A DNA stretch of 58,391 bases, filler included, from Sphacelaria rigidula (taxonomy: Eukaryota): the NCBI GenBank assembly GCA_964200075.2. It is 7 parts of 7 records of this genome, joined end to end, with 100 filler letters (N's around TTAATTAATTAA, not from the genome) between each part and the next. Parts side by side here need not be neighbours in the genome. Positions count along the whole stretch, not along the records: positions 25,069 to 33,324 come from CAXNAA020011760.1; 6 more parts are not named here. One strand, given 5' to 3'. This document shows positions 16,291 through 58,391 of the stretch, piece by piece. Made by a program: the position numbers and the translations under genes. Numbering within the stretch: the first letter of the stretch is position 1; the number at the start of each line of letters is the position of its first letter. A model generated the notes under the pieces. The model saw only the letters and a list, made by a program, of their open reading frames with translations. It was not told the DNA's origin and made no database searches.

Positions 16291-16521
16291 TCGTTGTAGC
16301 GTGCGTCGACAGGCCATCGAGTGCAAGACACGTCTGTACCGAGCTCGCTACAAGCAAAACAAGGTCGACGGATCCATATCAAAGTGTGATCGCATGCGAC
16401 GTGTAGTGTGCGGCAGTGCGAGAGCAACTGTCTGCTTGATACACGATCGAGCGTTGTCCGCAGACCCCAGTCTTTGGCATTTCCTCGTTCTGTTTGCAAG
16501 AGCTCATCTCGCCCCCCCCCC

Positions 16522-16593
16522 TCCGTCTCGAAAGGGATGCGAGGTCAATGGTCAAACGACTAAGGCAAGCAACAAATGAGTACGCCCCCCCCC
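16522..16593 (+). repeat. Short poly(C)-flanked repeat, family A 3'-tail subfamily
   Basis: 'tccgtctcgaaagggatgcgaggtcaatggtcaaacgactaaggcaagcaacaaatgagtacg' between C-runs. Related copies at 37664-37742, 41830-41863 and 54838-54909. Confidence 0.85.
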
Positions 16594-16759: not shown

Positions 16760-18490
16760 AATGTCCCATAGCTCGACTCTGTATACGAGTCACCCTACCC
16801 ATCCGGGCGTCGGTCCTCAGGACTCTTTGATGACGTCCACACCGTAGACCCACCATTTTCTTCGTTCTCCCTTACGTGAAACAGCCCCTCGGACACGCAG
16901 GTTCACTGCCCAGTGTGTCTGTCGGGGACCTGCCAAGCTCCTTGGACCCCTGTGCAGCCAGCCATCCGAACACGATGCGCTTCTGGAGACCAGCGACGTG
17001 TTTCGTCCTGCCTGCCGGACAGGGATCGTCACGAACGAGAGTTGACGCTTGCAAATGGTTCTCTCGATACGTCCGCACTGGATCAGCTCGACCACACCTC
17101 TTCTCAAGCACACCCCTGCATGGAAATACGCTTATGTCCACTGCGATCCTTCGTACGGGACCCAAACTGCTCGCAACTCGAAGGTTTTGTTTGGCAGTGC
17201 GAAGGCGCTCGAAACTACTCAGATGCAGCGTTGACGTTGCGCATCCGTATAGCATAGCCTTCACCACCTCCGCTCTAAGCACCCGGATCCCGAGTGAAAG
17301 CTGAGCCCGAGCCTTGAGCAGATTGGAGATTTGGGAGGCACATTTTCGGAGGCGCGCTCACGCAACGCTGATACGGCCCGCGACTTGAATGGAAATAGTC
17401 GTGTCGATAGCATCGTCAACGTAGACGAGCTCGGCTGTCACCTCGTTTCGATGGACCGGTGCCTCCGTGTTCAATGCGGTCGCATGGAAGCTGAACACTG
17501 ACCATAGATGGATGCATGACCTCTGTGTCGTCCTTCAAATGCTATTTCAGTAGTCCGAACTCCCGATACACTACCACTATCAGAGCCGCCATCCCAGCAA
17601 GCTCGCCTGGGGACCTCGAGACGACGTGTGCGTCATCCGCGCACGGCATTCCCCAAACCGCGCCTTGCACACTCTCTGGCGGCATCTCTTCTTGGGGGTT
17701 ACCCTCCTCCTTCCCCGTTGTATCATATACAAAAGATATTTACGAAGTCTGCGGCGATGGCCGGGGATGCCGCGGGACGCTGCAAAACGACGTCGACCAA
17801 AGCTGCGCCGAACATATTGAACAATAGCTCGGACGAAAAGTACCATTGCCTGAGTTTTCCTGGCAGACGTGCAACCACTCTGATGACTCGCCATCATCCA
17901 GCTGTATCCGAGGTTGCATGTCGCCGTGGAGCGTACAAATGACGTTGATCATCCGCCTCGGGACTTCGAAATGGGCAAGCAATCCCTGCAAAGACGTGCG
18001 GCCGGTGGAGTCGTATGCCCTCTGTAGTTCGATGACGCACGTGTTTGGTGAAATATTTCACGGCTGGCCCAGCTGCTGCGGTCGCAGGGCATATTGCGAA
18101 AATCACATCAGCGGTGAATATTTGGCGCCGGAATCCTCGCTGTTTCCCCGGGAGAATCCCGGCTCCCCCCTAAAAATTGCTGAGCCTGTGGGCTACGATT
18201 TTGAGGAGCAATTTACCGGTTTGCAGCACGAGGGCAATGAACCTTTTGCTACGACGCACCGTACTTCCTATTTGTGTAGCACTTTGATACTGCCGCGTTT
18301 CCACTCGCCGCGGCACCTGGCCAGGCCTTGGAACATGAGCGATAATGCCGTGGAAATTGCTTAGGATTTCTGAATGTAACAGCTTCCCAATAACTCCAAG
18401 ATTCAAGAGTTTAGCTGGTAGCCCATCCGGTCCCAAACTTCTCCGTCAGCCGCATCTCCCAGTGCCTCTTTTGTTTCATGTAGGATGAGT
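16760..18490 (-). mobile_element. Decayed non-LTR retrotransposon (LINE, RTE-like), RT to C-terminal region
   Basis: Broken minus-strand translations GPDGLPAKLL, GKLLLKIVAHRLS, FEVPRRMINVICTLHGDMQPRIQLDDGESSEWL and LRAEVVKAMLYGCAT are typical of LINE ORF2. Many frameshifts. Confidence 0.85.
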
Positions 18491-19958: not shown

Positions 19959-22900
19959 GTAAGGTTTGGAAATTCACCTGGAGCGTTAACAACAGCGTTG
20001 GAAGCGGGGGAGACTATATACCCTGGTACTTGAGCTGTTCGTACGGCGATGTTTGGAGACACTCGATCGGTACACTGGGTTCCTCTGCCGCGAAATTTGC
20101 AGAAGAATACCGTCTTGCGCATAAGCTGAGGTGCAGTACTCTCATGTACAACGATACAACGCTTCTTCTAGCAACATTCAACTTCAATTCTTGAAAGCAT
20201 CGATCGTCGAAGTAAGGTTCTTTTTGACAATTTCATAAGTAACACGCTACAAGTAGCGGCGTCGCTAGTTTTGATCTAGGCCAAGATCTAATTTCGGTGC
20301 CGAGAGAAAACCCTCGACAGATTCCTGCCGCATGCTTGCACGTAGGGAGGCCTTACGACTATAAAGTGAGGGGCACGTAGCGAGAGATGGGTAGATTTAT
20401 GCCGAAAAAGTACCTAACCCTAGTTTTTTTCGAAAAATATACGTGCTACTCAAGCTGTCTAGAAATCTGTGCAATCGAGTCGTAGCTCCTCCGACGTCGT
20501 AACGGACTGCTGCATGCCATCCCTTGTAGCAGTTTTCACTTTGTAAGCCACACCGCAAAGCGTTCCACAAAGACATCTGCTCTAAGAGAGCCCCGAAGCA
20601 TGGATGCACAGAATGGGGCATGTTCTCCTCATTTTAGGATGGCCTTGCTGCATCCTAGAGCCGCACACATCTTCCGCACAACCCCGCCGGTACCACTCTC
20701 CAACAACCCTCCGCGTCGACGGCAAATATAAGATAGAGCCTGGTCTCTCACATACAGCACGCTGACGATCCCCAACCCTCATAGCGAACCCCACCAGCTC
20801 GGCGTCCTCATCTTAAAGCGCACCGCCGCGGCATGGGCCTGTGAGCTGGCCGAAAAACGTCGGGCGGCACCTGCGCCGCGTGACGGATTGGCTTTCCCTC
20901 TGGATCATAACAGGCTCCCGAGAGCTGTGGGGCCTACATGTGAGGAAGGGTCTCGGGTAGGAGAGATATCCTACCCAGATTTGTGTGGGCGTGCGTAGAT
21001 GAACAGCTAGGCAGCGGGAATGTCGAGTCACCTCTGGCGGACGGTGGTCGGAGATGGTGCTTGTGATTTGAGGGAGATGGCATTTCCACTGCCTAGCTGT
21101 TCATCGACGCACGACCGCAAGAGTCTAGGTAGGGTATCTATCCCACTCTAGACTCTTCTGCCAATGTAGGCCCCACACCTCTCGGGAGCCTCTCGCGACT
21201 CGGAGGAAAGTCGAATGCGTAGCGCGGCGCAAGTGCTGGCTGGCCCTCCTCAGTCAGCTCCAACTCAGAACTCTATTTTGACGTGAAACGTGATGTCGCG
21301 GAGCTACAACCCAACGACACAGAATTCCGTGATGATTAGTGTACATACATACATATATATGCTATTTGCAACTGATCCGTTATTTTTTGTGGTCCTGTTA
21401 TTGTTGTCGCTGCTGGTGCTGGTGCTGCTGGTGCTGCTGTTTGTATTGCTTTTTTCTCGTGCACCTGTGATTAACTCGAATACTTGGCGTTGTGTAAACG
21501 TAATATGTAGGTTCCGACGGCATCCACGACGAGTTCTTGAAACGGGAAGACTGGGCTAGACTCATCCGCAAGCCCCTCAAGGCCCAAGGGCACGCCATAC
21601 TAGACGTGTGCACCCCGGATGGCGACATTCAGCGGAAGGCAAGTTACCCGGCAGAACGTAATTTCCGAGCGAAAGCAAAACTATCGTAATCTTTCTGCAC
21701 ATGGTACAACAAACAGTATTCGCATGTCTCATGTTTGGTTGCACAGGCAACGAAATGCGGAAAGTCGAGAATAGTAAGAAATCATCAAACGTTCCTTCCT
21801 AATGCTTTGTTGTAGCTACTGAATAACGAGTGTGCTTGCATTCACACGTACTCGTTTTTTTCTTCCTTCTCTTCCTTTTTTCACGTTGATGGCATGAACT
21901 GCATCGTCGTTCAAGATTTCCCCCACCCCCTTCTTCTACCTTCTCCCACTCGTGCGGCGTGGAGAATCTCAACTCCACACAAAGGGATGATGGTACTGCG
22001 TAGTGTTTACATGGTGAGACGCCCATGAGGCAGTGCGTAAGTCGTGGCTGTTTCTGGAAGTGGCGATACCAGAAAATGAAGCAACTCCTTGTACGCTGTC
22101 ATCCAAATGCAAGATAATCGATAGGCTTCGGGCCGAACAATCTCAGCAGGATTCAGCTCACCCATCATGCGACTCGCCGAACACACCACGGTGCTTCGCG
22201 CTCGGTGATTGATTGCGAGCCTGGTCCGGCGAAAACCCGGCGTGCTCCGTCCCGGCTTTGTAAGGATGCAAGGTGAATGGTCAGATGGCTATGGCATGCA
22301 TGATCATGAGTACACCCCTCTCCCACTCCTTCTGACGCTCTGTACAGTATCCACCTGCATGCCTGTCTGCCTACCTGTATTCCTGTGTATGTGTCCGCGC
22401 CTGTATTTACGTGTTCCCCGTTTTCCGTCTCTCGACCTATGTACGAATCTATTCTCCTCGGCCTATCTCTCCAAGTTGCCCGTCTGTGTTTCTTTTTGTA
22501 TGCCTCGCCGCTTTTGTGTCTCTCTTGTAACTGACTTTTATCTCCTGGCCTATGTCTCTCTATGGCTTTCTCTCTGTGCCCTTCTCTCTGTGGCTTTCTC
22601 TCTCTCCCCCCCTCCCTCTCCCCTCCCCTATGGTGAGGCACCCATGAGGCAGTGTATAAGCCGTGGCTGTCTCTGGAAGTCAATACCAGATAATATAGCA
22701 ACTCATCGTAAGCTGTCATCCAAATGCAAGATAATCAGTAGGCCTCGGGGCGAATAATCTTGGCCGGATGCAGCTCACCCTTCATGCGACTCGCCGAACA
22801 CATCACGGCGCTTCGCGCTNNNNNNNNNNCTTTGTAGGGATGCGAGGTCTATGGTCTTATGACTATGGCATGCATGATCATGAGTACATCCTCCCTCTCC

Positions 22901-23919: not shown

Positions 23920-24921
23920 CTACGGAGTGTTACGTTTGGTGATGGAGGTATAATCGCAAGGATCGTGTAAAGGAATGCCGCGATGACCAATGCTACTGGA
24001 ACTTATCTGTTCTTCACCCCGTTGTGCTAAAGGCGAACTTTCGCTACTCGATCCTTCCTGAACGAACGCTCGAGTAGTACAAGGCACTACAGATACCCCA
24101 TCGCTTGTTGGGGTACACGCGTATATCGGAAACGTTGGAATACCCCGCCCCCCCACTCTTGCTCCGGCGACAACCCGGCGCGCTTTGTCCGGGCTTTGTA
24201 GGGACGGACCCCCCTCTGGGGTTTGCGTCGGTTGGCGACGACGCTGTAAAACATGCCACTCACTGCGTAAGCTAGGCAACCAGGTCACCCTTTTTTTTGC
24301 GCGCTTGCATTTTTTTTTGCGATAACCGTGATGGTGGTCGAGCTAGATCATTTTTTGTGGGGTGGGAGAACCTCAACTCCGCGCGAAGGGGATGATGGTA
24401 CTACGGAGTGTTCACATGGTGAGACACCCATTAGGCAGTGTGTAAGCCGTGGGTATCTCTGAAAGTGGCGATACCGGGAAATGAAGCATATCATTTCAGG
24501 CTGTCATCCAATCGCAAGATAATGAGTACGCTTCGAGCGGAACAATCTTAGCAGGATTCAGCTCACCCTGCATGCGACTCGCCGAGCACACCACGGCGCT
24601 TCGCGCTTGGTGATTGATTGCGAGCCTGGTCCGACGAAAACCCGGGCTTACCCTCTGAGCAGATGACTCCTCGACATTTGCGTGCGTCGACTTTTGCATC
24701 CATTTAAATCGCCTCTACTAAGCACAGCCTTCGAAATGCGCTCATTTTCACGTCGATCCCATACCTGTCCCTCCCGTCGTTCCAGGCTTCTCCAGTGCAC
24801 TTGCAGTTTGGCCTTTGACTCTGAGGCAGTGGACATTAAGTCGGGTACCCGTTCACTGCAAAAATCCTGCTCACCGCGGTCCCTGCGTATCCAGTCATTG
24901 CACGGGTGGCCACTGGGGTGC
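23920..24921 (-). CDS. Putative last two exons (24652-24921, 23920-24103) of an unidentified gene convergent with METTL17
   Basis: GG|gtaagc donor and aag|C acceptor join in phase 2 to an open frame ending ...ITKRNTP*. The intron is almost entirely a family A copy. No recognisable domain; the upstream acceptor is uncertain. Confidence 0.35.
24163..24646 (+). mobile_element. Family A element, near full-length 5' part, lacking the 3' tail
   Basis: Colinear with the reverse complement of 31931-32495; preceded by a C-run. Confidence 0.9.
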
Positions 24922-25068: not shown

Positions 25069-27156
25069 CTATGGCATGCATGATCATGAGTACACCCCCC
25101 CCCCTATCGGAGCATCACTACGAGCACGGAGTATGGTGAGCCGCAGCACACGCAAGTGCAGACAGTCATTCTTGGAGGTTCATAAAAACACGCATTCTCA
25201 AAACGCCGGAGAAGCTCCACGGGGTACCGTATCGAGTGATAGCTGCCGGAATCCTGACAAAACCACAGGTGGCGACTGCATGGATGGTGTGCATCCAGCA
25301 GCCTCTACCTCATATATTTCTCCCCCCCGGAGAGTGGTGGTCCGGCATGGGTGCAGAAATATCTTCTGAAGTTCGAACTGTTGGAAGCCCTTCATCTCAT
25401 CCAAAAAAACGCTCATGAACTACGTGAGAATAAGTCACGATTAGTATTCAAATGGGCTAGGGATATCCCGAATGAAGGTGAAAACGGGAATGTCCTGATC
25501 CGTATTTTTTTTGGAGGTCCTAACTTCAGGAGCTCTACAAGGAGAAAGATCTGGGTCTGAATGCGCAAGCCTATTACCGTAGCATTAATGCGGAAAACAA
25601 GCGAGTGTATCTTGTGTGAGGAAAAGATGTAGGATTTTGCACAATTTTGAAAATTGAAAAAAAAAGTTTGAAACATTTTCACATCACACTATCATTCGTG
25701 GAGAACTCTGCAAACAAAACGAAAGAAAAAGAGGTGGGGGAAAAAAAAAGAGAAATAAAGTGTGGTGATCGTCGAATTGTGCATTTCATTCATAGTATCT
25801 GTGCGCAATCAATCGTCTTCCACTATGTTTCCTGCGGAATACTGGAGTGCCGCCACAAATTCAAACGCCCAAGAACATTGCTGCAGGTATTCACTGACGC
25901 TACAGTATGCGTTACGGATTATCGTAATCTGCGTGAGACCTGGGCCAGCCTAGAGACAGATTTAACTAAACTCTCAAGGCAATATCTCATCGACACAGAC
26001 GAGTTGGGCCGTGATCCGCATATCGCATTCATCGTGCAATCAAGGGGGAGGCGCCCACCTGCTCAAAAGTCTGGGCCAATATTCTCTCGTTGATCAAACC
26101 CCATGTCTAGTGATTCCTACACCGTACAGAGATAGCGTCCATACTAAAATCCATATGAAACCCCGAACGATACATTCAGCGAATGACGAAGACTTTAGGT
26201 ACATAAATTATCTGGAGGACGGGGAGACGATAGATACCCTTACCTTCACCTACTTCGTTATTCATCTTGAGAGATGGCGCACATAAGTTTTCATAATAAA
26301 ATCAACATATTACGAGCAGAGCCACTAAATGCCCTAAATCTGGATATCGCGTCTCAGTTACTGAGAGTTGTGCTATGAAATTTCGTACGGAGAACCGCTA
26401 GTGCACAACATTATAAAAAAAACAGTTTTCATTTTTCATTTTTTATTTTTCATTTTTTCATTTCCTTTTTCAGTTCCTTTTTCATTTTTTTTTCGTTTTT
26501 TCAGGAGAGTTCTGAGGAGAAATGAACATTGCTCTTGGGCCTGATCTCAAGGTTGAAACTCAATTTTTAGAATGGTGATTTGAAACTGAGCATGGAGAAC
26601 CACAGAGGTATGCAGAATAAAAAACAAAAATGGGCCTTCATTTTTTCTTTCCGAGAGTTTAGTGCGTTCTTGTGAGAAATTGGTGTTTACCATACTAAAA
26701 CGCCCTTAAGGCTACTTCTCATGTATGAAAAAACACGTTATCAGAAAAGCCCTTTATCAACAGCACGTTTTTTAACAGAATTTTTTCAAGTAGCCCTTCT
26801 TACGTGATCGACGCACTATCAACATTGAAAACGCAGTGTTCATCGTTTTCTATGACGTGTGCAGGCATTATTTCAAATTCTGGGGCGCGCGAGAGAGACG
26901 CAGCACTCTGCTGTCCTGCCGTGGTGTACGGTCCGTGCTGACTGTCTGTACTACTGTGATACATCGCCTGAGCAATACAAGTTGGGCTGCGTGACGCAAG
27001 TCCATCACTAACAACACCGCCTTGCTGTACCAACTGACTGTAGAAGTGACGGTTGTGCTTTTTCACTGAGCGGTAGTACTTGACTGAAAGGACAGCACGG
27101 ACAACAGTAGTACACACAACAGTGCTGTATTGCATGCATTGGCTGTAGTACTTCAA

Positions 27157-30621: not shown

Positions 30622-31930
30622 CGCGCCAGAGTACTACAACACCAAAACCCCCGGCTCCAGAAAAAAAAAGCCTCTGCACGTTCGACACAGGACATGAGCG
30701 TAGCGGACTCAGTCTTACTTTCGAGAAAAACCTAGCTGTTGTCGTTGAAAGTGTCAGAATGATAGGTGCAGATTTCATTGGACAAGAGTCGACGCGTTGC
30801 GGGAGTGGTCATCATCCAATCCTCGACACCGCAATGCCAGGCATGTATATACCAGGGGACAGGGTTGGGCTAAAAGTTTGACGAAGAACAAAAAAATAGC
30901 TATTCTGAAATATAGGAACGACCTTTTTTTTTCTCCATAGTAACGAAATTTTTTCCAAGGTAGTCGGGATTGCGGGAAATGATACACCCCACGAAGGCAC
31001 TTTCCAGGGATATCATTCACAGAATTTTTTCCCGTGGTATTCGTATTTGTGGGTCATGGCGTAACCATTTGGAGGCCTCCAGTTCCCTCGCAGGTGTCTT
31101 CGAGTGAGTACCGTTCGAACATCATCGAAACACTTGACACCAACATTTTGTTCCAAGGTGCCTTCGCAGGGGGTACCGTTTGTCACAATTCCGAACTACC
31201 ATCGAAAAAAATCCGTCATCATTTTTCAGAATCCCCTGCTTTTTGCACAAATCAAAGTTTCAAATATTTTCAAAAACTTAGAATTTAGACCTCGCGATGT
31301 CTCGTACACTAGGAATACAAATGCGATTTGTTTCACGTCAGCTGTCATCGGTACATAGGCGCCCATGATGACGAGCTCATCGGCGAGATCTCGGATATTT
31401 TTCAGCTCAAAAACTGATCTGTAGTGGCTGGTGGTACCCGTATATTGGGGTCCGGAGCGATGATCTCACTACATTAGATTCAGACCTGTAGTAGATGATC
31501 GACAAACGCATGGACATTTGCGTCATCACTCGAGTAATCGCAGCCTAGTCACCAGATAATTCTCTTCATGTCGTATGCAATCTCAGGGCAGTGAATGGTA
31601 TATAAACAATTTTCTCTTGTCATCTCAGGGCGGTGAATGGAAAATACATAATGTTGTATTACAGTTCTAAAACATTTTCAGCATTTATCGGGATACTCAA
31701 GGACGACGACCTTAAACGTACCTTTCATAGCCCAGCACTTGCCAACGGAAGAGGGCGGGGATATGGCGGCTATAGGGCCGTTTATCGATTGCCCTCCTGC
31801 GTTCCGCGCGATGTTCTTGAATTGCTCTACAACGGAAATCTTGTCCTGAAAAAAAATAAGAACAAGGGGAAAAAGAGAAAAAAAAAAATGACATGTGCAA
31901 TTTAGGGTGGCGTTAGGGGTGCAGCGGGGG

Positions 31931-32495
31931 TGTACTCATAATCTTGCATGCCGTAGTCATATGTTCATTGACCTCGCGTCCCTACAAAGCCGAGACCGAG
32001 CGCACCGGGTGTTCGCCGGACCAGGCTTTTAATCATTCACCAAGCGCGAAGCGCGAAGCGCCGTAGTGTGTTCGGCGAGCCGCATGAAGGGTGAGCTGCA
32101 TCCTGCCAAGATTGCTTGGCCAGAAGCCTACTAGGCATCTTGCATTTGGATGACAGCCTCCAATGAATTGCTTCATTTTCTGGTACGTTCACTTCCAGAT
32201 ACAGCCACGGATTCCGCACTGCCTCATGTGTCTCATCCTTGAAACACTACGTAGTATGATCATCCCCTTTGCGCGGAATTGAGATTCTCCCACCCCACAC
32301 AAAATAGTGTGGCTGGACCACCATCATGTCACCGCAAAAAAAAGCAAGCGCGCAAGAACAAATCGGTAACCTGGTTGTCTAGCTTACCCAGTGAGCAGCG
32401 TGTTCTACAGCGTCATCGCCAAACGACGCCAACCCCACGGGGGGGTCCGTCCCTACAAAGTCGGGACGGAGCACGCCGGGTTTCCGCCGGACCAG
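31931..32495 (-). mobile_element. Family A element, longest copy (~565 bp)
   Basis: Flanked by G-runs on both sides (C-runs on the element strand). A ~45-bp sequence 'ctggtccggcg.a.acccgg..gctc.gtc..g.ctttgtaggga' occurs at the 5' end and again ~50 bp from the 3' end. Confidence 0.9.
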
Positions 32496-33324
32496 GGTAG
32501 GGTGGGGGGGGGGGGGGGGGGGGGGGTGCAGGGGGAGGTGTTTCCAGTTTTCCATAATGCTAGGTGGTGGTGACACGTGGCCACAGCAATAGTTAACGAT
32601 ACATTGCTCACTAAAAGTAGAACAGACACAATGCAGGGTCAGGTACCTCACGCATCGGGTACCACCCCACGGGTAACCCCTCCTCTCAGATACCCCCCCT
32701 TCCCGCAGCCACTAATGAGCTCACCTTTGGTTTATAGGTATCGGAAGTCATCGCTTTCACTACGTTCCCGCCAGCGAGTGCCGTGGCGTAGTCTGGCTGC
32801 CCCGTGCTATCAGCGCCGTATCTGGAACAAAAAATGACAAAAAGTGCCAAGGTAACAAGAAAAAAAAATAAATGTGCAGGGGGTGCTATACGATATACAT
32901 AAATTTTGCATGCTACGTGAAGAACTGCCTCATGCATTTTTTTTTATTTCACTCGACTCTTCGACCGCCGGCCAGGGTACTTGCGTTTTCTGGGTCGTGC
33001 AATATATATTTTTTGGCGAAAATGATGCCAGTTCCAAAGGCCCGGCTGAAGAGAAGCAGAATAGAAAAGAGAAGAAAAAGCAGCCTGTCGTCTCCTGGGC
33101 GCTGAATGGGTCAACATAACATATGTACCCTAAAAAGCCTCCTTATTCAAGTCAACTTTGTATTCCCAAAGCCATCACTCATAATTAGATATTGCTCCCC
33201 TCATCTCAACGCATATCGATTATTTTACTTCAAACAGACGCCTGCCCCCCCCCCCCCCCCCCCCCTGGCCCCCCCCCCGGCGGTCCGGTGGCGCGTGGCC
33301 CACACACACAGCAACACAAAAAAA

Positions 33325-36900: not shown

Positions 36901-39900
36901 GAGTACGAAATTCAGGGCAGTTCTGTACAGCAGAGTACAGAACCGAAGAGTCGAGGGTGAAACAAAAGCACTGGCATTAAATAGGCACCACATCGATCCT
37001 TCCCGACGCCTCTACGCCAACAGCAAATATACACTCCCTCTGTCGCCTAAGTAAAGGTACCTACATCTGTATGGGCCCTTAACGATGTCCGATCGTTTTT
37101 TTTTTTCAATGAACTCTACGGTGTTTTTTGGTGAAGAAAATGTGTTTGAAATTTGCAGATCATGCTTGAACCATGCCGCCGAACGACTGCAAAAAAAGTA
37201 GTCGGTCCAAAAATGGCTGTTTTTTTGCCCCTTTCCGAGGGGAAAAAAATGTCGACTTTTTCCTTGATTTTTTTAATCGCCCCCACCTTCACTGGGGCTT
37301 GCTGCCAGGATGTCCCACGCGATTATAAAAAAAATTGACACTTTTTTTCCCCTCGGAAAGGGGCAAAAAACGGCCATTTTCGGGTAGACTACTTTTTTTG
37401 CAGTCGTTCGGCGGCATGGTTCAAAGCACGAGCTGCAAATTTCGAACACATTTTCTTAACCCAAAAAACATCGTAGAATTCATTACAAAAAAAAAACGAT
37501 CGGGCATCGTTAAGGGATCGTACTAATGTAGGTACCTTTACTTATGGGACAGAGGAAGTATATATACGTACATAGAAAAACAAACAACCCCCTCCACTCC
37601 CTATTTTGGAGGCGGAAAGAGCGCCCGAATATTGGAGGTCTCTATTAGTAGTAGGAACGGTGCTCCGTCTCGAGAGGAATGCGTGGTCAATGGTCAAACG
37701 GCTAAGGAAAGTAACAAACGGGTACGCCCCCCTCCCCCCCCCACTCTCCATGCCTCCATGACACTAACCAAATTCTCCCCTTTCCAACACAGAACCTCCG
37801 CCCATGCGCGCGAGGAAGAGAACCGTACTGGCAACGCACTCCTTCCAATACCCGTAGCTCCCCATCCTCCTTGCTCTCGGGCTCCTGGGTGTGGCCACCG
37901 CCGCTGCCGCCGCTGTCTTCCGCTCTCTGTCGTGGCGAGATCAACAGTATTCGCCCGGGTTTGCTTCGCAGGTCCCGGAGGTCGGGGGTGTGGTGGCAGG
38001 GGGTCTAAGCAAGCGACGTACCTCGCGTGTAATCCTAGACCGCGGCAGAGCGCAACAAACTGTGGTCCACGAACATGCACCAGCGCATTGGGGACATGCG
38101 AGGAGCGGGGGAGGGAGAAGTGGGGAGGGGAAGGGGCAGTGGTTATCCCTCTGGTTGATGGACAACACCTGCATGTGGAACATGACAAGGGGGAAAGTTG
38201 GTGTTTGGTGCTATGATGTGCGCGTCGTAACACCGCATCGAAAACTCAAACCGTGAATTACAGGAACAAACATGAGCACAAAACGCCTTCTTTCTTGTTG
38301 AGAAAATTACACCCAGTCGTTAGCAGAAAAGTCTACGTTGCTATTCGACAGCACATCCACTCAGCAGCAAACCATTCAAAGGCGAAGGGAGGCAGGGGGG
38401 GGGGGAGGCGAGCTTCGCTGTCTGTGCCGCGCATGTGTCAAGGTTCACAAAAATAGGACACGAGACATGAGAAGATGTAGACCATGCAAGATGGCGAACG
38501 GTCAGGGGTGGTGCAAGCACGGGGTAATCATTCAAAGCAGACAACCGAGACGTCCCGTATATAGTATTTACATACATGCGTGGGTACACCGGGAACGTTC
38601 GCTGAAAGCGTCACAGGGCCGACAAGCCCATTACCGCGCGTAGCCACGCCTCGCGGTGCACCGCAGGCGATTTGCTTCACCCCGCGCCAGACCCCTTTCC
38701 TCCCCCTACAGGATAAGATACAACAGATACGAGAGCAAGATGCCTCGCCGCCGTGTACTTACTCACCAGCTGCACGGCTTCTTGGGCGCACCCTACCCGC
38801 TGGTCGATAACCTTCAACAGCCTGGCCGGACGAGATCCCCAAGAGCTCCCGCCCCCGCCGCTGCTGCCGACCGCACCGTCATCTACGACAGAGATGAAGT
38901 CGCGGAACCAGATTACGAGAGCTGCAAGCGAGAGCGGCAACCGCGGATAGTGCTGGTGCTCGTGGTTGGGGGAGTTGGCACCCTGCTGTTGCCCCATCTC
39001 CATCGCCGCTTCTGCCGCCGCCCCTTCCCCTGCTTCGGAGGCGTTACTATTAGTAGCGGTACTGGTACCGGATGAGTTTATGCGAAGCTTCTGGACGGCG
39101 GGCCTCTGGTTCAGGTTTTGCGGGGGGGAGAAGGCGGGGGGGGAGGGGGCGGGGGTGGCGGACCAAGAGGGATACCGTACGAATACATATACATGATATG
39201 TTGAGATCCACGGCGTTCGAAAAATTATGGCGGGTCATCGCATTGGGTAAAATTCTCAGCCTCATCCTGTTCCAAGGTCGTGTTACGTTTTTGTTCACAC
39301 TCTTTTCTCCACGTGCATCGAGTGAAAGATCGGTTGAGGAACGGAGGAGTGGGGGTTCGCACGTATCTCGGTATCGTACACCACCCCGAACGACACTGTG
39401 ATTTACAGTGTCAGTAGCAACGCAACACGGCCTCGCCATCACACCTGCCAAAACACAACGGCACACACGCGCGCCCGCCCGCATGGGTCCACCCATTCTA
39501 TTCAGCGGACACCCTCGATAAACATGCGCTCAGCCACACCTCAGGGACAAGCTCGGCAGGAAGACACGACATCATGGCTGCTTGTACGGTAGGATCCCCC
39601 GCCCACCGACTGACGAGGGAGCACCGCGACACGAGGCACGCCAGATGCACTGTGTGGATATTCAATGCCTGCCGAATTTCTTCCTGGTCCGTTTCAAAGG
39701 TAAACGACATTTCCGCCAAAGGCATTGTTAACGCAGCGGCACGTGCAGGGTAGGAGGCGCAAATTACACCCTGGCAAGCAGGTACAACGGTTGAAACGCG
39801 AGGAGAGCTAAGTACTCAGGAGCATGACCCGCAAATCTATTCGTCCATCGATGTGCTTTTCTTCGTCAGAGTTCGTCACATGCTGTGACTTTGCTACGGG

Positions 39901-41780: not shown

Positions 41781-43354
41781 AGCAAAACGAAGAGCACTGT
41801 ACCGTACTTTCTCTTCTAACCCCCCCCCCAAGGCAAGCAACAAATGAGTACGCCCCCCCCCCCGAACAATGCTACAATCATGCGTGTGGACCATCCACTT
41901 CTCGCACAAGCCATGTAGTGCGACGACTTCTCTTACCCCGCGCCCGCATATTACCGCGTGGCAGCGATTTAGACCTTCCTTCGTTCCACCACTCTCGTAC
42001 CTGCCCCCTCATCCTCCGAGCCTCTGAGGGGGGCAATCTTTTCATCTGCCAATGAAGTACACGACATGGCTCCAAACACCAGCTGCCCAAGAGTAAATAT
42101 CATAACCAGTTTTGAGGTGACGACTGCGGTACGCTCAGGGATGTAACATAAATCGATTTCTGCGTGAGATGGAAGATAAATCACGCTTTTCGGCCGGCCC
42201 ATCGTATACGAAACTACGGCACAAAGCCCACAGATGGGGATAGATTTTTGTAGCGAAATGTGAAATTCAACCAATCAGAGGCCCTCCTGTGAGGAATCGG
42301 CGGAATCTAGCGCCAATGAAATGCGGTCTTCGTAGTGAATTATGTGGTGAAGAATGTTTGTGATTGGCTCGCAGACTCGAGTCACAGCTGTAGTGTACGG
42401 ACTATAGTGCAGGAGTGAACAGTAGCGCCGGGACGAATAGAACAGCAGCGAAGAAATGAAGCTGCAAGCAGACAAGCATACAGCGAGTGGTACATTGCCG
42501 CCGTGGGGGGTCGTTGCGATGCTCGTGTATTGGTATATATATCCCCATCTTAGGATGGCTGGTTGTGCCTTTCCATGAACGTGAGCGCTAGCGCCGCTGC
42601 CAGCGGCAGCAGCCGCCATGCTGATAGATGCAAACAGTACCCTGTCGGTGCAGTATATCCCGCACTTTGCTGTGGGTTGCTCCTTTCATCGGAGCAGTGG
42701 GTCTGGCCCAGCCGGTCGAGTGGTTTACACCGGTGCTAGTTTTGTGTCTTTATCCAGCCATGTTCGGTATCGCGCAAGTGATGGGTCGGGGTGACATGAT
42801 TTTTTCAACAGACAGTTAAGTGTGTAGGCCGCACTGCGTCCCGGGTGATAACTATATTTTACAGAGAGACGAACACAACAATACAGCAGTTCAGGCCATC
42901 TCAGCGGAGATCAGACCATCTTCGCAAGGTCTAAACACATCACAGAACAGTGATCGATACAGCACATGAGAGCGGACGTGAGTGTGTTTGTGCTGCATTA
43001 CAGTGAAACAGGACATATTCCATGTTTTAGTTCATCGGCTGATTGTGAGCGGGTCCTCAGTGTTCGCCGGGCGCCGATCTTCAATGCTCGGCTATAATCG
43101 CGCTTCGTGCAAATTATTTAATTCACTTCAAAATCATTCAGATGTACGGGTCCGGTGCCGAAACTACAGGGAAATACACGTATTTGTGTGGACTCTTCAC
43201 GAGTGAACAGACAGATGACTTCGGGCTCAAACGGCCTTGACTGATGTGATTCTTCAATCTCCTGGAAATTCGAAAAAAATATGATCTTGGAACGATTTGG
43301 GATGTTCGCACACAATGGTAAGCGGCGATCGAATCCGGCAAGAGATCGATCCAA

Positions 43355-44648
43355 GGGTAGGTCGAGTAGAGTAAGTACTTTTGAGTACTCACGTAAAATA
43401 CTCGAGTATTTACTCTACTCGACGTTTGAGTAGGTCGAGTACGGCCTCAAATACTCTACTCAAATTTTGAGTACGTCGAGTACGGCCTCCAATACTCCAC
43501 TCAAATTTCGAGTACGTCGAGTACGACCTCAAATACTCTACTCAAATTTTGAGTAAGCAATCTCAGCAATACTCGAGTATAGAGTATCACTTGAGTATGA
43601 CCTCAATACTCTACTCAAAATTTGAGTACGTTGAGTTCGGCCTCAAATACTCTACTCACATTTTGAGTACGTTGAGTATGATCTCAAATACTCTACTCAA
43701 ATATTGAGTGACCACTCCCAGCAATACTTGAGTATAGAGTACCCCTTGGGTATGGTAAGTACCCCTGACCGTCGGCGACTTCGTGACGTCATTTTACAGA
43801 CTATGTTGAATGCATGGGCAAACGATGGCCATAAAAAAATAAAAAATAAAGCGTGCAGGTGAATGAACATACCTGCCCCAGCGCCCCATCTCACCAGCCC
43901 CCACCCACGGCAGTTCATACTCGATACCTTGCAACGCCTTCGATATTACTCTCAGTACAAAGCGCTACTCATCATGATGGAGTAATCAAATAGACGAGTA
44001 GTCGACTAGGTATTATCAAAATGAGCGACTCTACTGGTCACATATGTGACTCCTCCATGGGAGAGTCAGCGGTCGAAATAGTGCAAGACGGGAAAACATC
44101 GCAACAGTCGCCAGAGGAAGAAAGATGTTCAAGTTACAGATTTTGGTACATCGGACCCGGCCTCCGATACTCTACTAAAGTTTTGAGTAGATCGAGTTCG
44201 GCCTCAAATACCCTACTCAATTTTTGAGTACGAAGAGTACGGCCTCAAATACTCTACTCAATTTTTGAGTAGATCGAGTACGACCTCAAATACTCTACTC
44301 AAATTTTGAGTAGGTCCAGTACGGTCTCAAATACTCTACTCAAATATTGAGTACGTCGAGTACGGCCTCCAATTGTCTACTCGAATTTTGAGTAGATCGA
44401 GTACGACCTCAAATACTCTACTCAAATTTTGAGTAAGCACTCTCAGTAATACTTGAGTATAGAGTATCGCTTGAGTATGACCTCAATACTCTACTCAAAG
44501 TTTGAGTACGTTGAGTATGATCTCGAATACTTTACTCAAATTTTGAGTACGTTGAGTATGATCTCACATACTCTACTCAAACTTCGAGTACTGAAAGTAT
44601 GACTCTTCAAAAATACCGAGTATTGATTATACTCTACTCGACCTACCC
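43355..44648. mobile_element. Non-autonomous TIR element with 41-bp palindromic tandem arrays (T/A variant)
   Basis: 19-bp TIR gggtaggtcgagtagagta / tactctactcgacctaccc. Arrays of gagtacgacctcaaatactctactcaaattttgagtagatc at ~43400-43750 and ~44160-44600. Confidence 0.85.
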
Positions 44649-45139: not shown

Positions 45140-45405
45140 ACCCACATGGGGGGATATAAGAATCCACCCACAATTCGACTTAATGGTCGACGAGGGAAAG
45201 AGACTGCTGAACTCCTCTCGCGATTAAAAAAAGGCAAGCACCGCAGAAGGGAGGTGGAGTGCTAAAAATAAACAAAAAAGAAAAAACTCCTGTGTTGACC
45301 TTCCTCCTGCTGTGTGACCCCGGCTGATGCAACCACATATACCGAAAGGTGTAGACTGGCATCCAGAATAGATGGGACGACAGCACACAAAACATACATC
45401 CACAC
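45140..45405 (+). mobile_element. SINE family B, 5'-truncated
   Basis: Colinear with 50700-50939. Confidence 0.8.
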
Positions 45406-45414
45406 ATTTTACTC

Positions 45415-45964: not shown

Positions 45965-48900
45965 TGTAGCCTCTACCAGACAATCTGGACAAGACCTCCA
46001 GCAGTATCTGGCCTCGCAGCTCGATGAGCCTTCTCAGAGCTTTGTGTCATTCATGGAGTAAGCAGCAAGGGTAATCATCCACAGGATGCCCTTGTCCCCT
46101 GGTCATCATCCAGGATCCTACATGCAACATCTACTACGCCTTGGTATCATTTGGCTACAGCACCCCCAAAGCGAGTTCAAGACGAACGAACGAGCTTGAC
46201 GACCAACAAAAAACCAAGGCGAACTCGCATGCTCCAAATCACAAAGAAATGCCACACTCCGACGCTAGTTCACTTGTCAGCGCCCGAGTCAACCTCAGTT
46301 TACGCGATTCCTGCGCAAAAAATTCAGGCGCAGGAAAAAATATCTTCCGAAGAGACTTTTACGTACTTCCTTCAGCACCGAACTCATCTCAATCGACCAA
46401 AACAATAACATGACCATTGCTTCAAGACCATTCGACCAATGGGTATTCGCAACATCAAATGAGTGTTGCACCTCCAGCGCGTCGCTCTGCTGCCCGATTC
46501 TTGTACTTGGTTCTTGAAGTGCGTGGCGGTATCACTAACCCAGACACGCCGCACCCCCAAAGTCTTGCACCATTGGAACAAATACTTAGCAGTAACCTCG
46601 GCAGTGGAAGCCACTGTTGGTTTCAACCAAACGGAATTCGACAAATCATCCGGGATAACAAACGTACAGCAAACCATCAGGCAGTTAGTACCGTCAAGTT
46701 TGCTACGTCCGACATACAAAAATCAAATTGAACAACCTCACCTGGCGCAATACCTTGAACAGTATCGCAAAAACGTGCCACGGGCAAGGATCAGTTTTTC
46801 GTACGTGCATAATTTCTTTGATCCTCAAACACACGAAAACTCGTGTGATCTTTGCTCACAGACAGCGAGCCTACGCATTTCGTAGTTTCAGCTCATTTTC
46901 ACGTCATCAGCAGCAGTCACCGTCTCCTACAGTCAGTACGAGCTTCATTTCATTCATCACTCACCAGTATTTTGTTAATTGCCTCACCCTGACGGTTATC
47001 ATACACCATGCACATCAGTAGCATTCGAGCGAAAATTCCACACATGCATGCCAATATCCCACTCAGCATACGAAAATTCGTACATGCATGCCAATATTTG
47101 ACTCAGGACCTGCAATGCAACCCGTGTTGCACAAACCATGCATCGTGCATGCTATTCAGAGCAGCACAACACACGCATACCAAATTCCACGCGTACACCG
47201 GCATTTTCCAGCGAACGCAACACGAGCACACCCGCTGTACTGTCATGCTTCATGCGCGAACAGCAACACAAACATGACCCCAAAAGAACACCATAACAAC
47301 CTGTAATCGTCAGAAAACGATTCGGAAATACCAGTCATCATGTGTGTCCTCATGCTCAACAAGCACCCTCACAAGTACTTGCTCCTCAACAATATTCAAT
47401 CCGGCGCTCACCACTATATCACTAATCTCAGGTAATCCCCGCTTTGTAGGCTTCCAGTCTGCTCCTGCGGAGTAGCAGCACTGGAACCACTACCTTCTGC
47501 ACACCATAGAGCAACAATTTTTCTTGTACGGTAGCTCCTAGCAGCCACACCTAGCACCCCCATGGTGCATGTCAGCATGCCACCAAACAGCATATCCTTA
47601 CTGCCGAACCAATGCGACAAATACTCTGCCTCCACAGAAGCTTGCGCATGACGATTTCTCCTGGTTCAGTCGCTTGTTTTAGGCGAAGAGAGGTGGAACG
47701 GGAACAACCATGCAGTCCCGCATAGCAACAGCTCTCGGGAGCACCACACCATCCTCATTAAGCACCGGACCTGACATTATATGAGCAATATCACGCATCA
47801 AATAATTCGCTTACATTTACGATGGGACAACGGCGAATCGACCATCCGAAATCCATGATCCATCAGCGCCTTATGAAACGCTCTCACCGCACAATTCTTC
47901 ACGTGCCATCCCGTATCACCGACCCATACCTCCGGCGACCCCATCGCTTTTGCTTTGAACCATGTCAGAAAATGCTCCACCTTCTTCACCCCTACACTAA
48001 ACTCCGCGGGCTCCAACCACACGAAGTTGCTCACATCGTTGTTGATCAACAAATTATTTTGGATCGGATCTCCGTCGTCCAACCCACCATTTTCCAGCTG
48101 ACCACTTGTTCTATCGCTGAGGAAATTGAATTTCATCACCCCCTCCGGGCGAGTACCATGCACCTTATCCCCACCATGCACCATATCCTCGTGGGGAGGG
48201 GGAATGTGCGCCCCCCCACGTTGGCTTCGCTCACCCGTCGGGAGCAGAAATTTTCCGGCATTTCCATCGCCGCTCTCTCCAAGCTTGACTGCAAACTGCA
48301 GTATAGTAACCCAAACGCCACCAAAACTGCAATGCACGAAGCTAGCCACCCGGCCTTCACCGGATCGTTGCGATGGGATTGGGCCTTCGCAGCCGTCGCC
48401 TTTGACTGGGGCTGCACCCTCATAGGCTATACGGCTTCACTCTCAGGAGCTTCCTCTTCCTTTTCACCTGTATCCTTCTTGCTGTCACTTTGAGACGACC
48501 ACACAGGGATGGTCACCCGCCTAGCCGAAAGATAGCTGAGGTTGTTCACGCTGGTCTGCACCGGCACAGCACGCGGGCGTAACTTTTCCAAAGCCAGCGG
48601 ATACAAATCTACCCCAAGTTCCTTCATAGTCGCCATGCCAAACAACACCAAGTCATCGTTGCCAGGCATGACCGCGAAAGTGATTGGCGGCATCTCCACA
48701 GCCCCCCACGGCGTTCGCACGCTCACCGCAATAGGCACCGTTTTATGAGAAACAGTCACGGGCGCACCCGTGGCATTCTGTGCCACTTGCGGTCCATTTT
48801 CAAATGGTAGCTGCAGCTGGGCGCATCCGAACTGTGAAGACATCTGTTGTAGCAACCCTACACTTATTGATGTGAGTACTGATCCAGAGTCGAGAAAAAC

Positions 48901-49974
48901 ACGAGCCATAAATGAACCAACAGAGCCGGGTAAAGATCGATCGGCGCGCAAGCATTCTGCGCTACGGTCGACAGGCACCACATCTGCCGAAGAAAAACTC
49001 TGGTTAGTACCTAGAGTCACTTTACGCCAAGGCAGCGCTCCAGCACTTGACATCGGTGTTTTTACATTCGTCGCAACAGTGGAAGATACACGAGACACGA
49101 ATCCTGCCGGGCCTGTAGGTTGCGAGCCTTCCGCTCCAGCACTCCCCACCGAAGTATTACCTTCTCCCACATATGTTAGCTGCCCCGACACAGACAAACC
49201 TAGAGATCTAGAGTCATCACGTGAGAACGCACTTGAGGATACAGTAGCGGCGGAATGACAATGCTCCGTCGCTTGATTTCGTTTTTGGCCCCTGCCTCTG
49301 CACCCGTATCTCTGGTTGCTCCGACCTTGTCCGCCATGACAACCGCCTCGAGATCCTGACAAATCTCGCGCATTTCCTTGCGCAGCGCCTTTAGCGCGAG
49401 GCTTGGGATAACGTCTTAACATATGCCCATGGTCTCCACAATTGTAACATAGGTGAGTGAACAACGCTCGCGAAGTCGGCAGCTGTTCCTGTTGCTTGCG
49501 CTCGCCATACTTTGACGTTTCTAACGGTTCATCCCAAACCAGCGGCGTCGTTGCCGCTTGAGCCATGCTCTCTATGTTTACAAAAATCACGGATAGACTC
49601 TTGCCTTACTTGAGCGTCCCTCCAGCGGAGTGTGTCCCTCCAAACGCTGTGCGTTGTAAGCTGCCTTCCGTCTAAGAACCAGCTGCTTTCCGCAGCTTCA
49701 ACCAGGATCCGAAAAACCGTACAGCTTCAATCCTCTCTCCAGTTTCTCCAGGCCTTCCAACAGAGTGCCGAGGAATATCTAGATATTATTGCCTCTGCCA
49801 GACGATCTGGACAAGACGACTTCCAGCGAGGGTCTCCTCCAGCAGTATCTGGCCTCGCAGCTCGATGAGCCTTCTCAGAGCTTTGTATCATTCATGAAGT
49901 AAACAGCTGCAGCCCGTACCGTCAGGCATGGGCTATACAGCAAGCGTCATCATCCACAGGATGCCCTTGTAACA
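45965..49974 (-). mobile_element. Decayed, internally deleted Ty3/gypsy LTR retrotransposon
   Basis: LTR-like direct repeats ~45971-46096 and ~49793-49970. ORF 48427-49590 has a zinc knuckle CYNCGDHGH and protease motif VFLDSGS...LFGM. Integrase-core remnants at ~47820-48250 and ~46430-46720. No RT or RNase H seen. Confidence 0.85.
48427..49590 (-). pseudogene. Retrotransposon gag zinc knuckle plus aspartic protease fragment
   Basis: CX2CX4H with the last Cys replaced by Tyr; DSG catalytic motif. Confidence 0.85.
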
Positions 49975-50579: not shown

Positions 50580-50939
50580 GCCCCGGTGGCTAAATTGGTC
50601 ACCTCGGAACCTCCTGACGGTTGGGTTGTGGGTTCAAAACTCGGAGCAATCTGGGACTTTTTCTCACACTATGCCCAAGAGTGGAGAGCGACTATGTCAT
50701 GGGTACACGAAATTCGACGTAACGATCGACGAGGGAAAGGGAATGCTGAATACCTCTCGCAATAAAAAAGAAAGGAAAGGACCGCAGAAGGAAGGTGGGG
50801 TACTAAAAATAAACAAAAGAGCAAAAACTCCCGTGTTGACTTCCTCCTGTGTGAACCCGGCTGGTGCGCCCACATATACCGAGAGGTGTACACCGGCGTC
50901 CAGAATAGATTGTATGACAAAAAAAAACACACCACACAT
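50580..50939 (+). mobile_element. Full-length tRNA-headed SINE (family B)
   Basis: A box TGGCTAAATTGG (50587-50598), B-box-like GGTTCAAAAC (50631-50640), body shared with 45140-45405 and 8357-8445, A/CA-rich tail. Confidence 0.75.
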
Positions 50940-54679: not shown

Positions 54680-55750
54680 GAAATTCAACAAAACAGCCGA
54701 CAAAACCAACGATAAAAAGAACATAGCAAGAACACGCACATATCGTTCAATTTTTTCTTTCTCGCTCACATTCACCAACTCCCTGAAGAACCCCCCCCTC
54801 CCCATGCATGATCATCAGTACATCCCCCCCCTCCCCCTCCGTCTCGAAAGGGATGCGTGGTCAATGGTCACACGACTAAGGCAGGCAACATATGTGTACG
54901 CCCCCCCCCATCCCCCCTCATCAACATAATGTTATTGCGCAGCGCATACCACTACTCCATGCCACATATGTATAACAAGAACTGATGAGTCATAATTGAC
55001 ACCGACCCCCCTACCCGCAATTTTTATTTGTACAGGCGCTGGTGGCTGTCCGAGTACAAACGCGAACGACGATACGAACACCCTGAAAATTCAGTGCGCT
55101 ATTTATCACACCATTTGTGAGATATTCCCAGTATACATGCGGCACATCGATCGCAAAAAAATATCAAGGGTCGGACGAATCATTACTTGATTTTAGTGTG
55201 ATTCGCACGGTACGAATCACTCCTAACGCTTTGTTTTCAGCATTGCAACCCAGGCACGTGGAATGGTGCAAAAGTTGCGTGGAGACCTGTTTGACCAGCG
55301 GTTAACATCCTTCTCTATTTCGATCAATCAGGCCCTAAGAAATCGTGGATTTGGTGGTTTGAACCGGCGATGATTCGTCCTAACCGTGTAAAATCCAACA
55401 AAACAGCCGAGAAAACCAACAAAAAACACAACACAGCAAGAACACGCGCATATAGTTCACTTTTTTTTCGCTTACATTCATGAAGTCCCTGAAGAAATCC
55501 CCCCTTCTCCCGTCAACATATTGTTATTATACGCGCGCATATCGTTTACTTTTTCTACGCTCACATTCATCAAGTCCCTGAAGAAATACCCCCTTCCCAC
55601 GTCAACATATTTTTATATGCGCAGCGCATAGCTCTACTTCATGCCACATATGTCATAATTGACACCGACCCCCCCTACCCGCAGAAAAGAAATGTATAAA
55701 CGCTGGTGACTGTCCGGGTACAAACGAGAATGACGATACGAACACCCCAA
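54680..55750. repeat. Local duplication (~54680-55090 and ~55390-55750); the first copy carries family A tail insertions at ~54803-54909
   Basis: Shared 'caacaaaacagccga.aaaaccaac...agcaagaacacgc.catat...ccctgaagaa...tcaacata...gcagcgcata...catgccacatatg...cataattgacaccgacccccc'. Confidence 0.85.
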
Positions 55751-58274: not shown

Positions 58275-58391
58275 GGTAAGACATCCATGAGGCAGTGTAC
58301 AAGCCATGGCTGTCTCTGGAAGTGGCGATACCACAGCATAAAGGAACTCATTGTTGGCTGTCATCCAAATGCAAGATAATCAGTAGGCTTC
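58275..58391 (+). mobile_element. Family A fragment at the window end
   Basis: Family A body after 'gccccgcccccgcc'. Confidence 0.85.

What the first reader, a model, noticed from the sequence alone, without database searches (positions are those of the whole stretch)
31931..32495. High-copy non-coding element with fixed 3' end, variable 5' truncation and poly(C) targeting (family A)
Seen: at least 13 pieces in six unrelated contigs (16522, 21950, 22630, 24163, 25069, 31931, 33425, 37664, 41590, 41830, 54803, 54838, 58275). Copies that retain their 3' end finish in '...(g/c)(a/g/t)gtac(a/g)' plus a C-run. 5' ends start at different internal points, nearly always just after a C-rich tract. The longest copy repeats a ~45-bp sequence at its 5' end and near its 3' end. 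I found no TIR, Pol III boxes, poly(A) tail or ORF. Established: a fixed 3' end with 5' truncation is the signature of target-primed retrotransposition, and (C)n targeting with terminal direct repeats is reported for Naiad/Chlamys Penelope-like elements. Inference: a non-autonomous, homopolymer-targeting retroposon, possibly PLE-mobilised. It could be an already catalogued unclassified brown-algal repeat (e.g. Ectocarpus Sower); I cannot verify this.
Basis: partly seen in the sequence, partly recalled or inferred. Interest (0 to 1): 0.72.

Follow-up and report, generated by a model that had tools for sequence, protein, structure and literature searches.

The report
Non-coding hitchhiker of a seaweed LINE
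This is a common 560-base non-coding jumping element in a brown seaweed that borrows the enzymes of a LINE retrotransposon and inserts at runs of C; a very similar element is already described in Ectocarpus, and the main addition is that its copies start at a few preferred points.

Summary
The repeat is real, but it is not Penelope-like. Family A (about 563 bp, about 1.3% of a 400-kb sample) is the non-autonomous partner of an APE+RT LINE. Its last 72 nt are homologous to the last codons of the LINE's single ORF, and positions 63-103 match the LINE's 5' end (79-88%). It is therefore bipartite, with a 47-bp copy of its own 3' region added in front. Insertions sit at C-runs, and the best-preserved ones have target-site duplications that begin with the C-run; this explains the C tract at both ends. 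3' ends are fixed. 5' ends are not random: they cluster at 1-5, about 260 and about 465, with no subfamily-diagnostic mutations. The anatomy matches Ectocarpus RTEX-1/2 and RTEX-N1 (Dinatale 2025), and an 80% homologue of the repeat-plus-tail unit lies beside an Ectocarpus-type LINE. I could not compare the published consensus directly. No Pol III head, Rfam family or ribozyme was found. Verdict: new member of a known kind; the cause of the discrete 5' ends is open.

The parts
31931..32496 (-). Full-length family A copy (consensus positions 3-563; 87.5% to consensus)
32450..32496 (-). 5' copy of the 47-bp repeat R; marks the fixed 5' end of full-length copies
32395..32435 (-). 41-nt segment homologous to about nt 15-55 of the partner LINE's 5' end
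   Evidence: local score 57 against a maximum of 25 in 1000 shuffles
32336..32362 (-). Two T8 runs on the sense strand (consensus 136-143 and 155-162; the first is degenerate in this copy); expected to stop Pol III
   Evidence: the Pol III effect is established knowledge, not tested
32230..32242 (-). Preferred 5' start of about 305-nt copies (consensus about 257-269)
31977..32027 (-). 3' copy of R; its 5' edge is the preferred start of about 100-nt copies (consensus 460-472)
31932..32003 (-). LINE-derived 3' tail (consensus 491-562), homologous to the last codons of the LINE ORF; holds two predicted hairpins
31926..31930 (-). 3' C-run (target or priming site)
32504..32526 (-). Upstream C-run, probably part of a decayed target-site duplication
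   Evidence: the TSD reading for this copy is by eye and did not score
21952..22314 (+). Family A copy 199-563 with a TSD of about 10-14 bp
22630..22888 (+). Family A copy 260-563, interrupted by an N gap
24160..24645 (+). Family A copy 5-489; tail lost
25069..25094 (+). Family A tail at a contig start
33425..33485 (-). Family A piece 297-357 at a contig edge
41587..41680 (+). Family A piece starting at 260, cut by the contig end
54804..54823 (+). Very short family A tail, head-to-tail with a LINE tail
58275..58391 (+). Family A piece starting at 262, cut by the window end
16521..16584 (+). 3' end of the autonomous LINE (96.9% to an intact copy)
37613..37726 (+). 3' end of the autonomous LINE; translates to the ORF's C-terminus
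41830..41852 (+). 23-nt LINE tail between C-runs
54837..54900 (+). 3' end of the autonomous LINE (92.2%)

Best explanation
Family A is a non-coding, non-autonomous partner of a brown-algal RTE-X-type LINE (single APE+RT ORF of about 1360 aa), the counterpart of Ectocarpus RTEX-N1. Shown: it carries the LINE's 5'-end motif and 3' end; copies have a fixed 3' end, land at C-runs and can carry TSDs of about 8-25 bp that begin with the C-run. Inferred: the RNA is made by Pol II or read-through; the LINE protein binds the conserved 3' hairpins; the endonuclease nicks the G-rich strand; the G-run 3'-OH pairs with C's at the RNA's end and primes reverse transcription; the cDNA joins by 1-4 nt of microhomology. 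Each insertion duplicates the C-run and so makes a new target, which explains head-to-tail piles. Short forms (about 305 and 100 nt) arise again and again from the same masters at preferred stop points, most likely where RT falls off. The 5' repeat was probably gained once, by a template jump onto a second RNA's 3' region that ended at the about-465 stop point, and is now inherited.
For: The tail-bearing element extends into APE and RT frames. All 21 of 30 RT loci that reach the 3' end carry this tail type. Intact relatives have one APE+RT ORF ending in the peptide the tail encodes. The A tail aligns over 72 nt (86.5% over the last 52) and translates to a matching peptide. The LINE 5' motif is found in A in 9 of 18 loci at 79-88%. 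TSD score exceeds the 99th percentile of 600 mismatched flank pairs in 16 of 124 copies, about 1 expected. Starts: 14 at 1-5, 14 at 256-272 and 12 at 460-472 of 74, against at most 11 in any 17-nt window in 5000 uniform simulations; replicated with 10 of 19 at 257-269. No diagnostic mutation survives correction over 301 and 97 positions. The Ectocarpus table lists RTEX-1 (single EN-RT ORF, (C)n 3', C-rich TSD) and RTEX-N1 (607 bp, 60-bp 3' end 83% to RTEX-1/2, weak 5' homology to RTEX-2, tandem copies). A homologue of R plus tail (80% over 76 nt) lies beside an Ectocarpus-type LINE (72-76% aa to an Ectocarpus protein).
Against: The RTE-X label rests on matching anatomy and homology to unnamed Ectocarpus proteins, not on a tree with named references. 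The published consensus FASTA could not be read. Most copies (108 of 124) show no significant TSD; they are about 10% diverged and C-only TSDs cannot be scored. The A tail differs from the LINE tail by about 15% plus two indels, so another LINE subfamily could be the true partner; none with an A-type tail was seen in 30 loci, but these were the best hits to one query. About 350 bp of the body and the first 25 bp of R have no traced origin. In one search, short copies differed from a query-biased full-length set at positions 532 and 550 (p about 0.001); against unselected copies only 532 remained, at p=0.011. RT fall-off and the template jump are inferences.
Confidence: 0.88

Rival explanations
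1. Non-autonomous Penelope-like element (Chlamys/Naiad type), with R as pseudo-LTR and the last 48 nt as the 'tail' extension.
For: The layout R-body-R-tail and the (C)n bias resemble the description in PMC8557442. Chlamys elements exist in Ectocarpus.
Against: The tail is the coding end of an APE LINE. R is fixed in length and inherited, not remade. A 5' segment comes from the same LINE. One weak GIY-YIG match in the genome (a poor test for Chlamys endonucleases). Ectocarpus Chlamys-1 ends in (A)n.
Confidence: 0.03
2. True SINE: R is a Pol III promoter head, and the 100-nt form is a Pol III transcript from the second R.
For: Both R copies mark 5' ends. The 305-nt and 100-nt forms hold no T4 run. 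The 100-nt form appears in runs of four other labelled organisms.
Against: No box A or B match and two T8 runs in the full-length sense strand. No tRNA, 5S or 7SL match in Rfam. 7 of the 12 short copies begin 1-6 nt upstream of R's edge.
Confidence: 0.06
3. Same LINE partner, but the discrete 5' ends are RNA ends made by a self-cleaving ribozyme or internal promoter in R and at about 260, not RT stops.
For: Full-length copies start at R in unrelated flanks. All 20 copies that keep the first AG have a pyrimidine before it. 5' ribozymes are reported for RTE, Ingi and R2 LINEs (PMC5786205 passages).
Against: No Rfam ribozyme and no hammerhead core on either strand. No HDV-like fold found by eye. 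Starts are ragged over about 12 nt. No covariation above shuffles for the hairpin/pseudoknot tested in the shared 5' motif. The 260 site shares no sequence with R.
Confidence: 0.15
4. The short forms are separate master subfamilies that amplified on their own.
For: Sharp clustering; weak allele skews at 286, 321 and 532; Ectocarpus has a separate 188-bp RTEX-N2.
Against: No diagnostic position survives correction (25 mid-length and 16 short copies); starts are ragged.
Confidence: 0.2

Closest known systems
RTEX-N1_Ec32 (and RTEX-N2_Ec32) of Ectocarpus, PMC12477816
   Same: About 600 bp, non-coding, thousands of copies, about 1.2% of the genome, 60-bp 3' end about 83% like the autonomous LINE, weak 5' homology to the LINE, C-rich TSD, tandem copies.
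   Different: 563 bp; another brown-algal lineage (partner protein type 55% identical to the Ectocarpus one); older copies (about 10% from consensus). The 47-bp repeat and the discrete 5' start sites are not mentioned in the passages and table rows I read. No direct sequence comparison was possible.
RTEX-1_Ec32 / RTEX-2_Ec32 (autonomous RTE-X LINEs, 5.5-5.9 kb)
   Same: Single EN-RT ORF, (C)n 3' end, C-rich TSD. The partner LINE here is about 6 kb by my estimate, with one APE+RT ORF.
   Different: These correspond to the partner, not to family A. All copies inspected in this genome's RT search had stops or frameshifts somewhere or were partial.
Bipartite non-autonomous LINEs (RIME/Ingi, NARTc/L1Tc, Bov-A and RTESINE/RTE), PMC5786205
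   Same: They keep only the 5' and 3' parts of the LINE and are probably Pol II transcribed.
   Different: That paper lists only RTE, Ingi, Vingi and R2 as sources. Here the LINE 5' motif is internal, behind a duplicated piece of the 3' region, and most of the body is of unknown origin.
Non-autonomous Chlamys PLEs such as MRC1, PMC8557442
   Same: Direct repeat near both ends, (C)n bias, head-to-tail copies.
   Different: The partner is an APE LINE, not GIY-YIG+RT; the repeat is inherited rather than formed at insertion.
Ectocarpus 'Sower' repeat
   Same: Most abundant repeat, 1.2% or about 2.5 Mb, the same total as RTEX-N1 (2.48 Mb).
   Different: That Sower equals RTEX-N1 is my inference; the word does not occur in the 2025 paper's text or annotation table. 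No Sower sequence was available.

Membership tests
RTE-X-dependent non-autonomous element (RTEX-N1 type) | 3' end homologous to a single-ORF APE+RT LINE | tested here: met
RTE-X-dependent non-autonomous element (RTEX-N1 type) | (C)n 3' end and C-rich TSD | tested here: met
RTE-X-dependent non-autonomous element (RTEX-N1 type) | Non-coding, about 600 bp, fixed 3' end with 5' truncation | tested here: met
   563 bp
RTE-X-dependent non-autonomous element (RTEX-N1 type) | Homology to the LINE's 5' end | tested here: met
   9 of 18 loci; shuffle control
RTE-X-dependent non-autonomous element (RTEX-N1 type) | Partner RT falls in the RTE-X clade on a tree with named references | not testable with these tools
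   No Repbase/Dfam references. Indirect: homology to unnamed Ectocarpus proteins and anatomy equal to RTEX-1.
RTE-X-dependent non-autonomous element (RTEX-N1 type) | Sequence match to the published RTEX-N1/N2 consensus | not testable with these tools
   FASTA supplement unreadable. Indirect: 80% over 76 nt beside an Ectocarpus-type LINE.
Penelope-like element (Chlamys/Naiad) | Autonomous partner with GIY-YIG and PLE RT sharing the 3' end | tested here: not met
   Tail-sharing partner is APE+RT
Penelope-like element (Chlamys/Naiad) | Pseudo-LTR formed by a partial tandem at insertion | tested here: not met
   R fixed in length; within-copy 0.145 against between-copy 0.143; discordant allele in 12 of 14
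Penelope-like element (Chlamys/Naiad) | Insertion bias for (C)n | tested here: met
   shared with RTE-X, so not diagnostic
SINE in the strict sense | Small-RNA-derived head with Pol III boxes, no internal T-run terminator | tested here: not met
SINE in the strict sense | Transcription by Pol III | not testable with these tools
   needs ChIP or inhibitor data
Retrozyme or ribozyme-headed retroelement | Known self-cleaving ribozyme motif | tested here: not met
   an undescribed motif is not excluded
TRIM / LTR element | Direct repeats at both termini, regenerated at each insertion | tested here: not met
   48 nt lie beyond the 3' repeat; frequent 5' truncation

The most novel reading that the evidence does not exclude
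The 47-bp repeat R, conserved in several brown-algal lineages, is an undescribed RNA element (self-cleaving motif or programmed RT stop) that sets the 5' end wherever it occurs. One master would then yield both the 563-nt and the 100-nt retroposon, and the family would show how a LINE-derived element gains a new head by recycling its own 3' region.
Probability: 0.1. Interest if true: 0.65.

Novelty: new member of a known kind. Interest (0 to 1): 0.3.

Why it matters
As a class it is known: Ectocarpus RTEX-N1 has the same build. The additions are modest. The 5' homology that the Ectocarpus table calls weak is pinned here to a 41-nt motif at the LINE's very 5' end, which puts an RTE-X-type LINE among those with bipartite derivatives (a 2018 survey listed only RTE, Ingi, Vingi and R2). 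The TSD geometry shows C:G priming, the counterpart of the A:T priming of L1. Thousands of copies with 5' ends at a few fixed points give a natural test of what stops reverse transcription in a LINE. In practice, copies often lie at contig ends in this assembly, and annotators should separate family A from LINE tails.

Tried and rejected
Rfam: nothing at gathering score in the window; three chance-level hits in 7 loci at E up to 5, none in the head. Folding the window copy: z = -1.37, not unusual. Hairpin plus pseudoknot proposed for the shared 5' motif: 90.7% of cells paired, but covariation no higher than shuffles (442 of 500 at least as high), so unsupported. ARAGORN at a relaxed threshold gave three calls, none at the head, two wrapping the ends; treated as noise. 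HDV, twister, pistol and hairpin ribozyme patterns were tried by eye from recalled consensus features; none fitted. Splice-site origin of the 260 start (a GTGAG lies at 263): rejected, since many copies include 1-6 nt upstream. A supposed third C-tailed family was reread as another repeat with an internal C-run that serves as a target. Pattern scan of metagenomes for the 5' motif: 0 hits. LINE relatives in viral contigs: none of 257 candidates. Sequencing runs: no RNA holder listed on record; all four runs laid were contigs, so nothing follows on expression, strand or RNA ends. Earlier scan findings: none in three look-ups. Literature searches on truncation hot spots and poly-C RTE-X targeting gave 0, 0 and 1 papers, the last irrelevant; the library is incomplete, so this does not show absence from print. 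Only 20 of the 40 hits were examined for start sites.

Full report
Setting. The window is seven contigs of about 8.2 kb joined by N spacers, from a 244-Mb assembly in 27,214 contigs. The host is inferred to be a brown alga: the named homologues of its LINE protein are all from Ectocarpus (8 of 13 hits; the other 5 are unnamed).

The observation. All 13 positions hold repeat pieces, but of two kinds. Nine are family A; four (16521, 37613-37726, 41830, 54837) match the 3' end of an intact LINE at 86-100%. A genome search with the window copy gave 6,432 first-look candidates, and the best hits are near full length with both ends fixed. Thirty of them define a 563-bp unit, with copies about 10% from consensus. 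In 40 arbitrarily chosen 10-kb stretches there were 24 pieces covering 5,150 bp, or 1.3%. Extrapolated, that is about 3 Mb and over 10,000 pieces; this is rough, since only long contigs were sampled. Contigs from four runs labelled as four other organisms cover nearly the whole element (26-27 of 30 bins), so the family is not confined to this genome.

The partner. Extending the second tail type upstream led into RT and APE-endonuclease frames. An RT search gave 3,778 candidates; 21 of the 30 loci fetched reach the 3' end, and all 21 carry this tail. Intact relatives have a single ORF of about 1360 aa with Exo_endo_phos and RVT_1 domains. The ORF runs to within about 5 nt of the C-run. Family A's last 72 nt align with this coding end, 86.5% over the last 52 nt, with two indels, and translate to a matching peptide. 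Two hairpins are predicted at equivalent places in the A tail, in the LINE tail and in a distant homologue, with different loops. That they are the RT recognition signal is inferred from what is known of stringent LINEs (recalled).

Bipartite build. The LINE's 5' end was located: it is fixed, follows a C-run and precedes an array of about 63-bp repeats. Family A positions 63-103 match about nt 15-55 of the LINE in 9 of 18 loci at 79-88%; 11 LINE 5' ends are listed; the score is 57 against at most 25 in 1000 shuffles. So A = R (47 bp) + short C-rich linker + LINE 5' motif + about 350 bp of untraced body + R + tail. The 3' half of R overlaps the LINE-derived tail, so the 5' R is the derived copy (inference).

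Insertion sites. Over 124 copies with both flanks (61 A, 63 LINE), C makes up 77% of the first 10 nt downstream and 54% of -6 to -20 upstream, against 26% background. TSD scores, weighted towards non-C matches, passed the 99th percentile of 600 mismatched flank pairs in 7 of 61 A and 9 of 63 LINE copies. Clear cases are 8-25 bp and begin with the C-run (L031, L033, L034, L052). The C tract before 5' ends is thus the left TSD copy. Several junctions show 1-4 nt shared between target and element (L031, L051, L084; by eye). The geometry fits a nick on the G-rich strand with C:G priming (inference). Insertions into the C-run of earlier copies are common (window 54804-54900; L004, L071, L093).

Discrete 5' ends. 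Excluding the 30 query-selected full-length copies, 74 starts with real flanks fall at 1-5 (14), 256-272 (14) and 460-472 (12), with 4 more at 52-63. Uniform simulation of the 59 non-full starts never put more than 11 in a 17-nt window in 5000 trials. An independent set, 20 of the 40 hits, gave 10 of 19 at 257-269 and 3 at position 1; one locus had no flank. That query was itself a 260-type copy. Many contigs in the four other runs match exactly the 100-nt R-plus-tail stretch. Short LINE tails also cluster, at 61-71 nt from the end (25 pieces; the exact edge depends on the reference copy). No position separates short from long copies after correction, although one search showed skews at 532 and 550 against a query-biased set. 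Seven of the 12 short copies start 1-6 nt upstream of R's edge, which fits a fall-off zone better than a cleavage site. Full-length copies, however, all start at R in unrelated flanks, so their RNA must begin there; what sets that start is unknown. All 20 copies that keep the first AG have a pyrimidine before it; this is unexplained.

Not a Penelope-like element. I read the abstract, introduction, section 10 and keyword passages of PMC8557442: pLTRs arise from partial tandems, a 30-40-bp tail is common, and Chlamys favour (CA)n and (C)n. The resemblance is real but superficial. In 34 full-length copies the two R's differ by 0.145 within and 0.143 between elements; this test has little power alone. 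More telling, a G at position 16 of the 5' R goes with A in the 3' R in 12 of 14 copies. A GIY-YIG search gave one weak match, a weak test.

Not a strict SINE or known ribozyme element. No box A/B match, two T8 runs, no hammerhead core; no Rfam family; no covariation support for the structure tried.

What is known. PMC12477816 (abstract, part 1 of section 5, keyword passages, and the matching rows of the annotation table) describes RTEX-1/2 (single EN-RT ORF, (C)n 3' end, C-rich TSD) and RTEX-N1 (604-607 bp, over 6000 copies, 2.48 Mb, 60-bp 3' end 83% like RTEX-1/2, weak homology to the 5' of RTEX-2, tandem copies, head origin unresolved). The FASTA supplements could not be read; they would settle orthology and may already show the repeat. 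An indirect link exists: metagenome locus L218 holds a LINE 72-76% identical to an Ectocarpus protein and 51-57% to the type found here, followed by a piece 80% like family A's R plus tail over 76 nt. PMC5786205 (keyword passages) describes bipartite non-autonomous LINEs and lists RTE, Ingi, Vingi and R2 as sources. PMC3145265 (passages) gives Sower as 1.2% or about 2.5 Mb; its identity with RTEX-N1 is my inference. PMC11203168 and PMC3167599 (passages) added nothing.

Verdict. Works like, and very probably is, an RTEX-N1-type non-autonomous LINE partner (0.88). New member of a known kind; interest 0.3. The open point worth a follow-up is why 5' ends fall on a few fixed sites.

Noticed in passing
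L034 974-1297, L051, L061 about 6570-6720, L228: Another repeat with an internal C-run (after GGCCC(A/G)AAATA, before ATCGTAG) is hit repeatedly by LINE tails and family A: a recurrent landing pad.
   Followed up: partly
L170 1640-3701, L175, L219 1-1067: The partner LINE has a 5' UTR of about 2 kb with an array of about 63-bp tandem repeats, and an ORF that ends about 5 nt before the C-run, so its 3' recognition signal lies in coding sequence.
   Followed up: partly
L219 (genome contigs record titled as an uncultured bacterium MAG): An intact algal-type LINE (1359 aa, APE+RT) sits in a record labelled bacterial; probably binning contamination.
   Followed up: no
window 14501-16236 and 43403-44602: A family of 100-120-bp tandem repeats in two contigs; by recall these may be Cys-rich EsV-1-7-like repeats, as in L081 1-880.
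   Followed up: no
window 16872-17357 (-): Frame that looks by eye like the C-terminal part of another LINE's RT protein.
   Followed up: no
window 48427-49605 (-) and 2088-7609 (+): Gag/protease-like frames, by eye, suggesting decayed LTR retrotransposon pieces.
   Followed up: no
window 8358-8444, 45172-45407, 50711-50939: A further dispersed repeat, 82-94% alike, in three contigs.
   Followed up: no
window 25069, 33425, 41680, 58391: Four contig ends in the window lie inside family A, as do many genome hits: the family helps fragment this assembly.
   Followed up: partly
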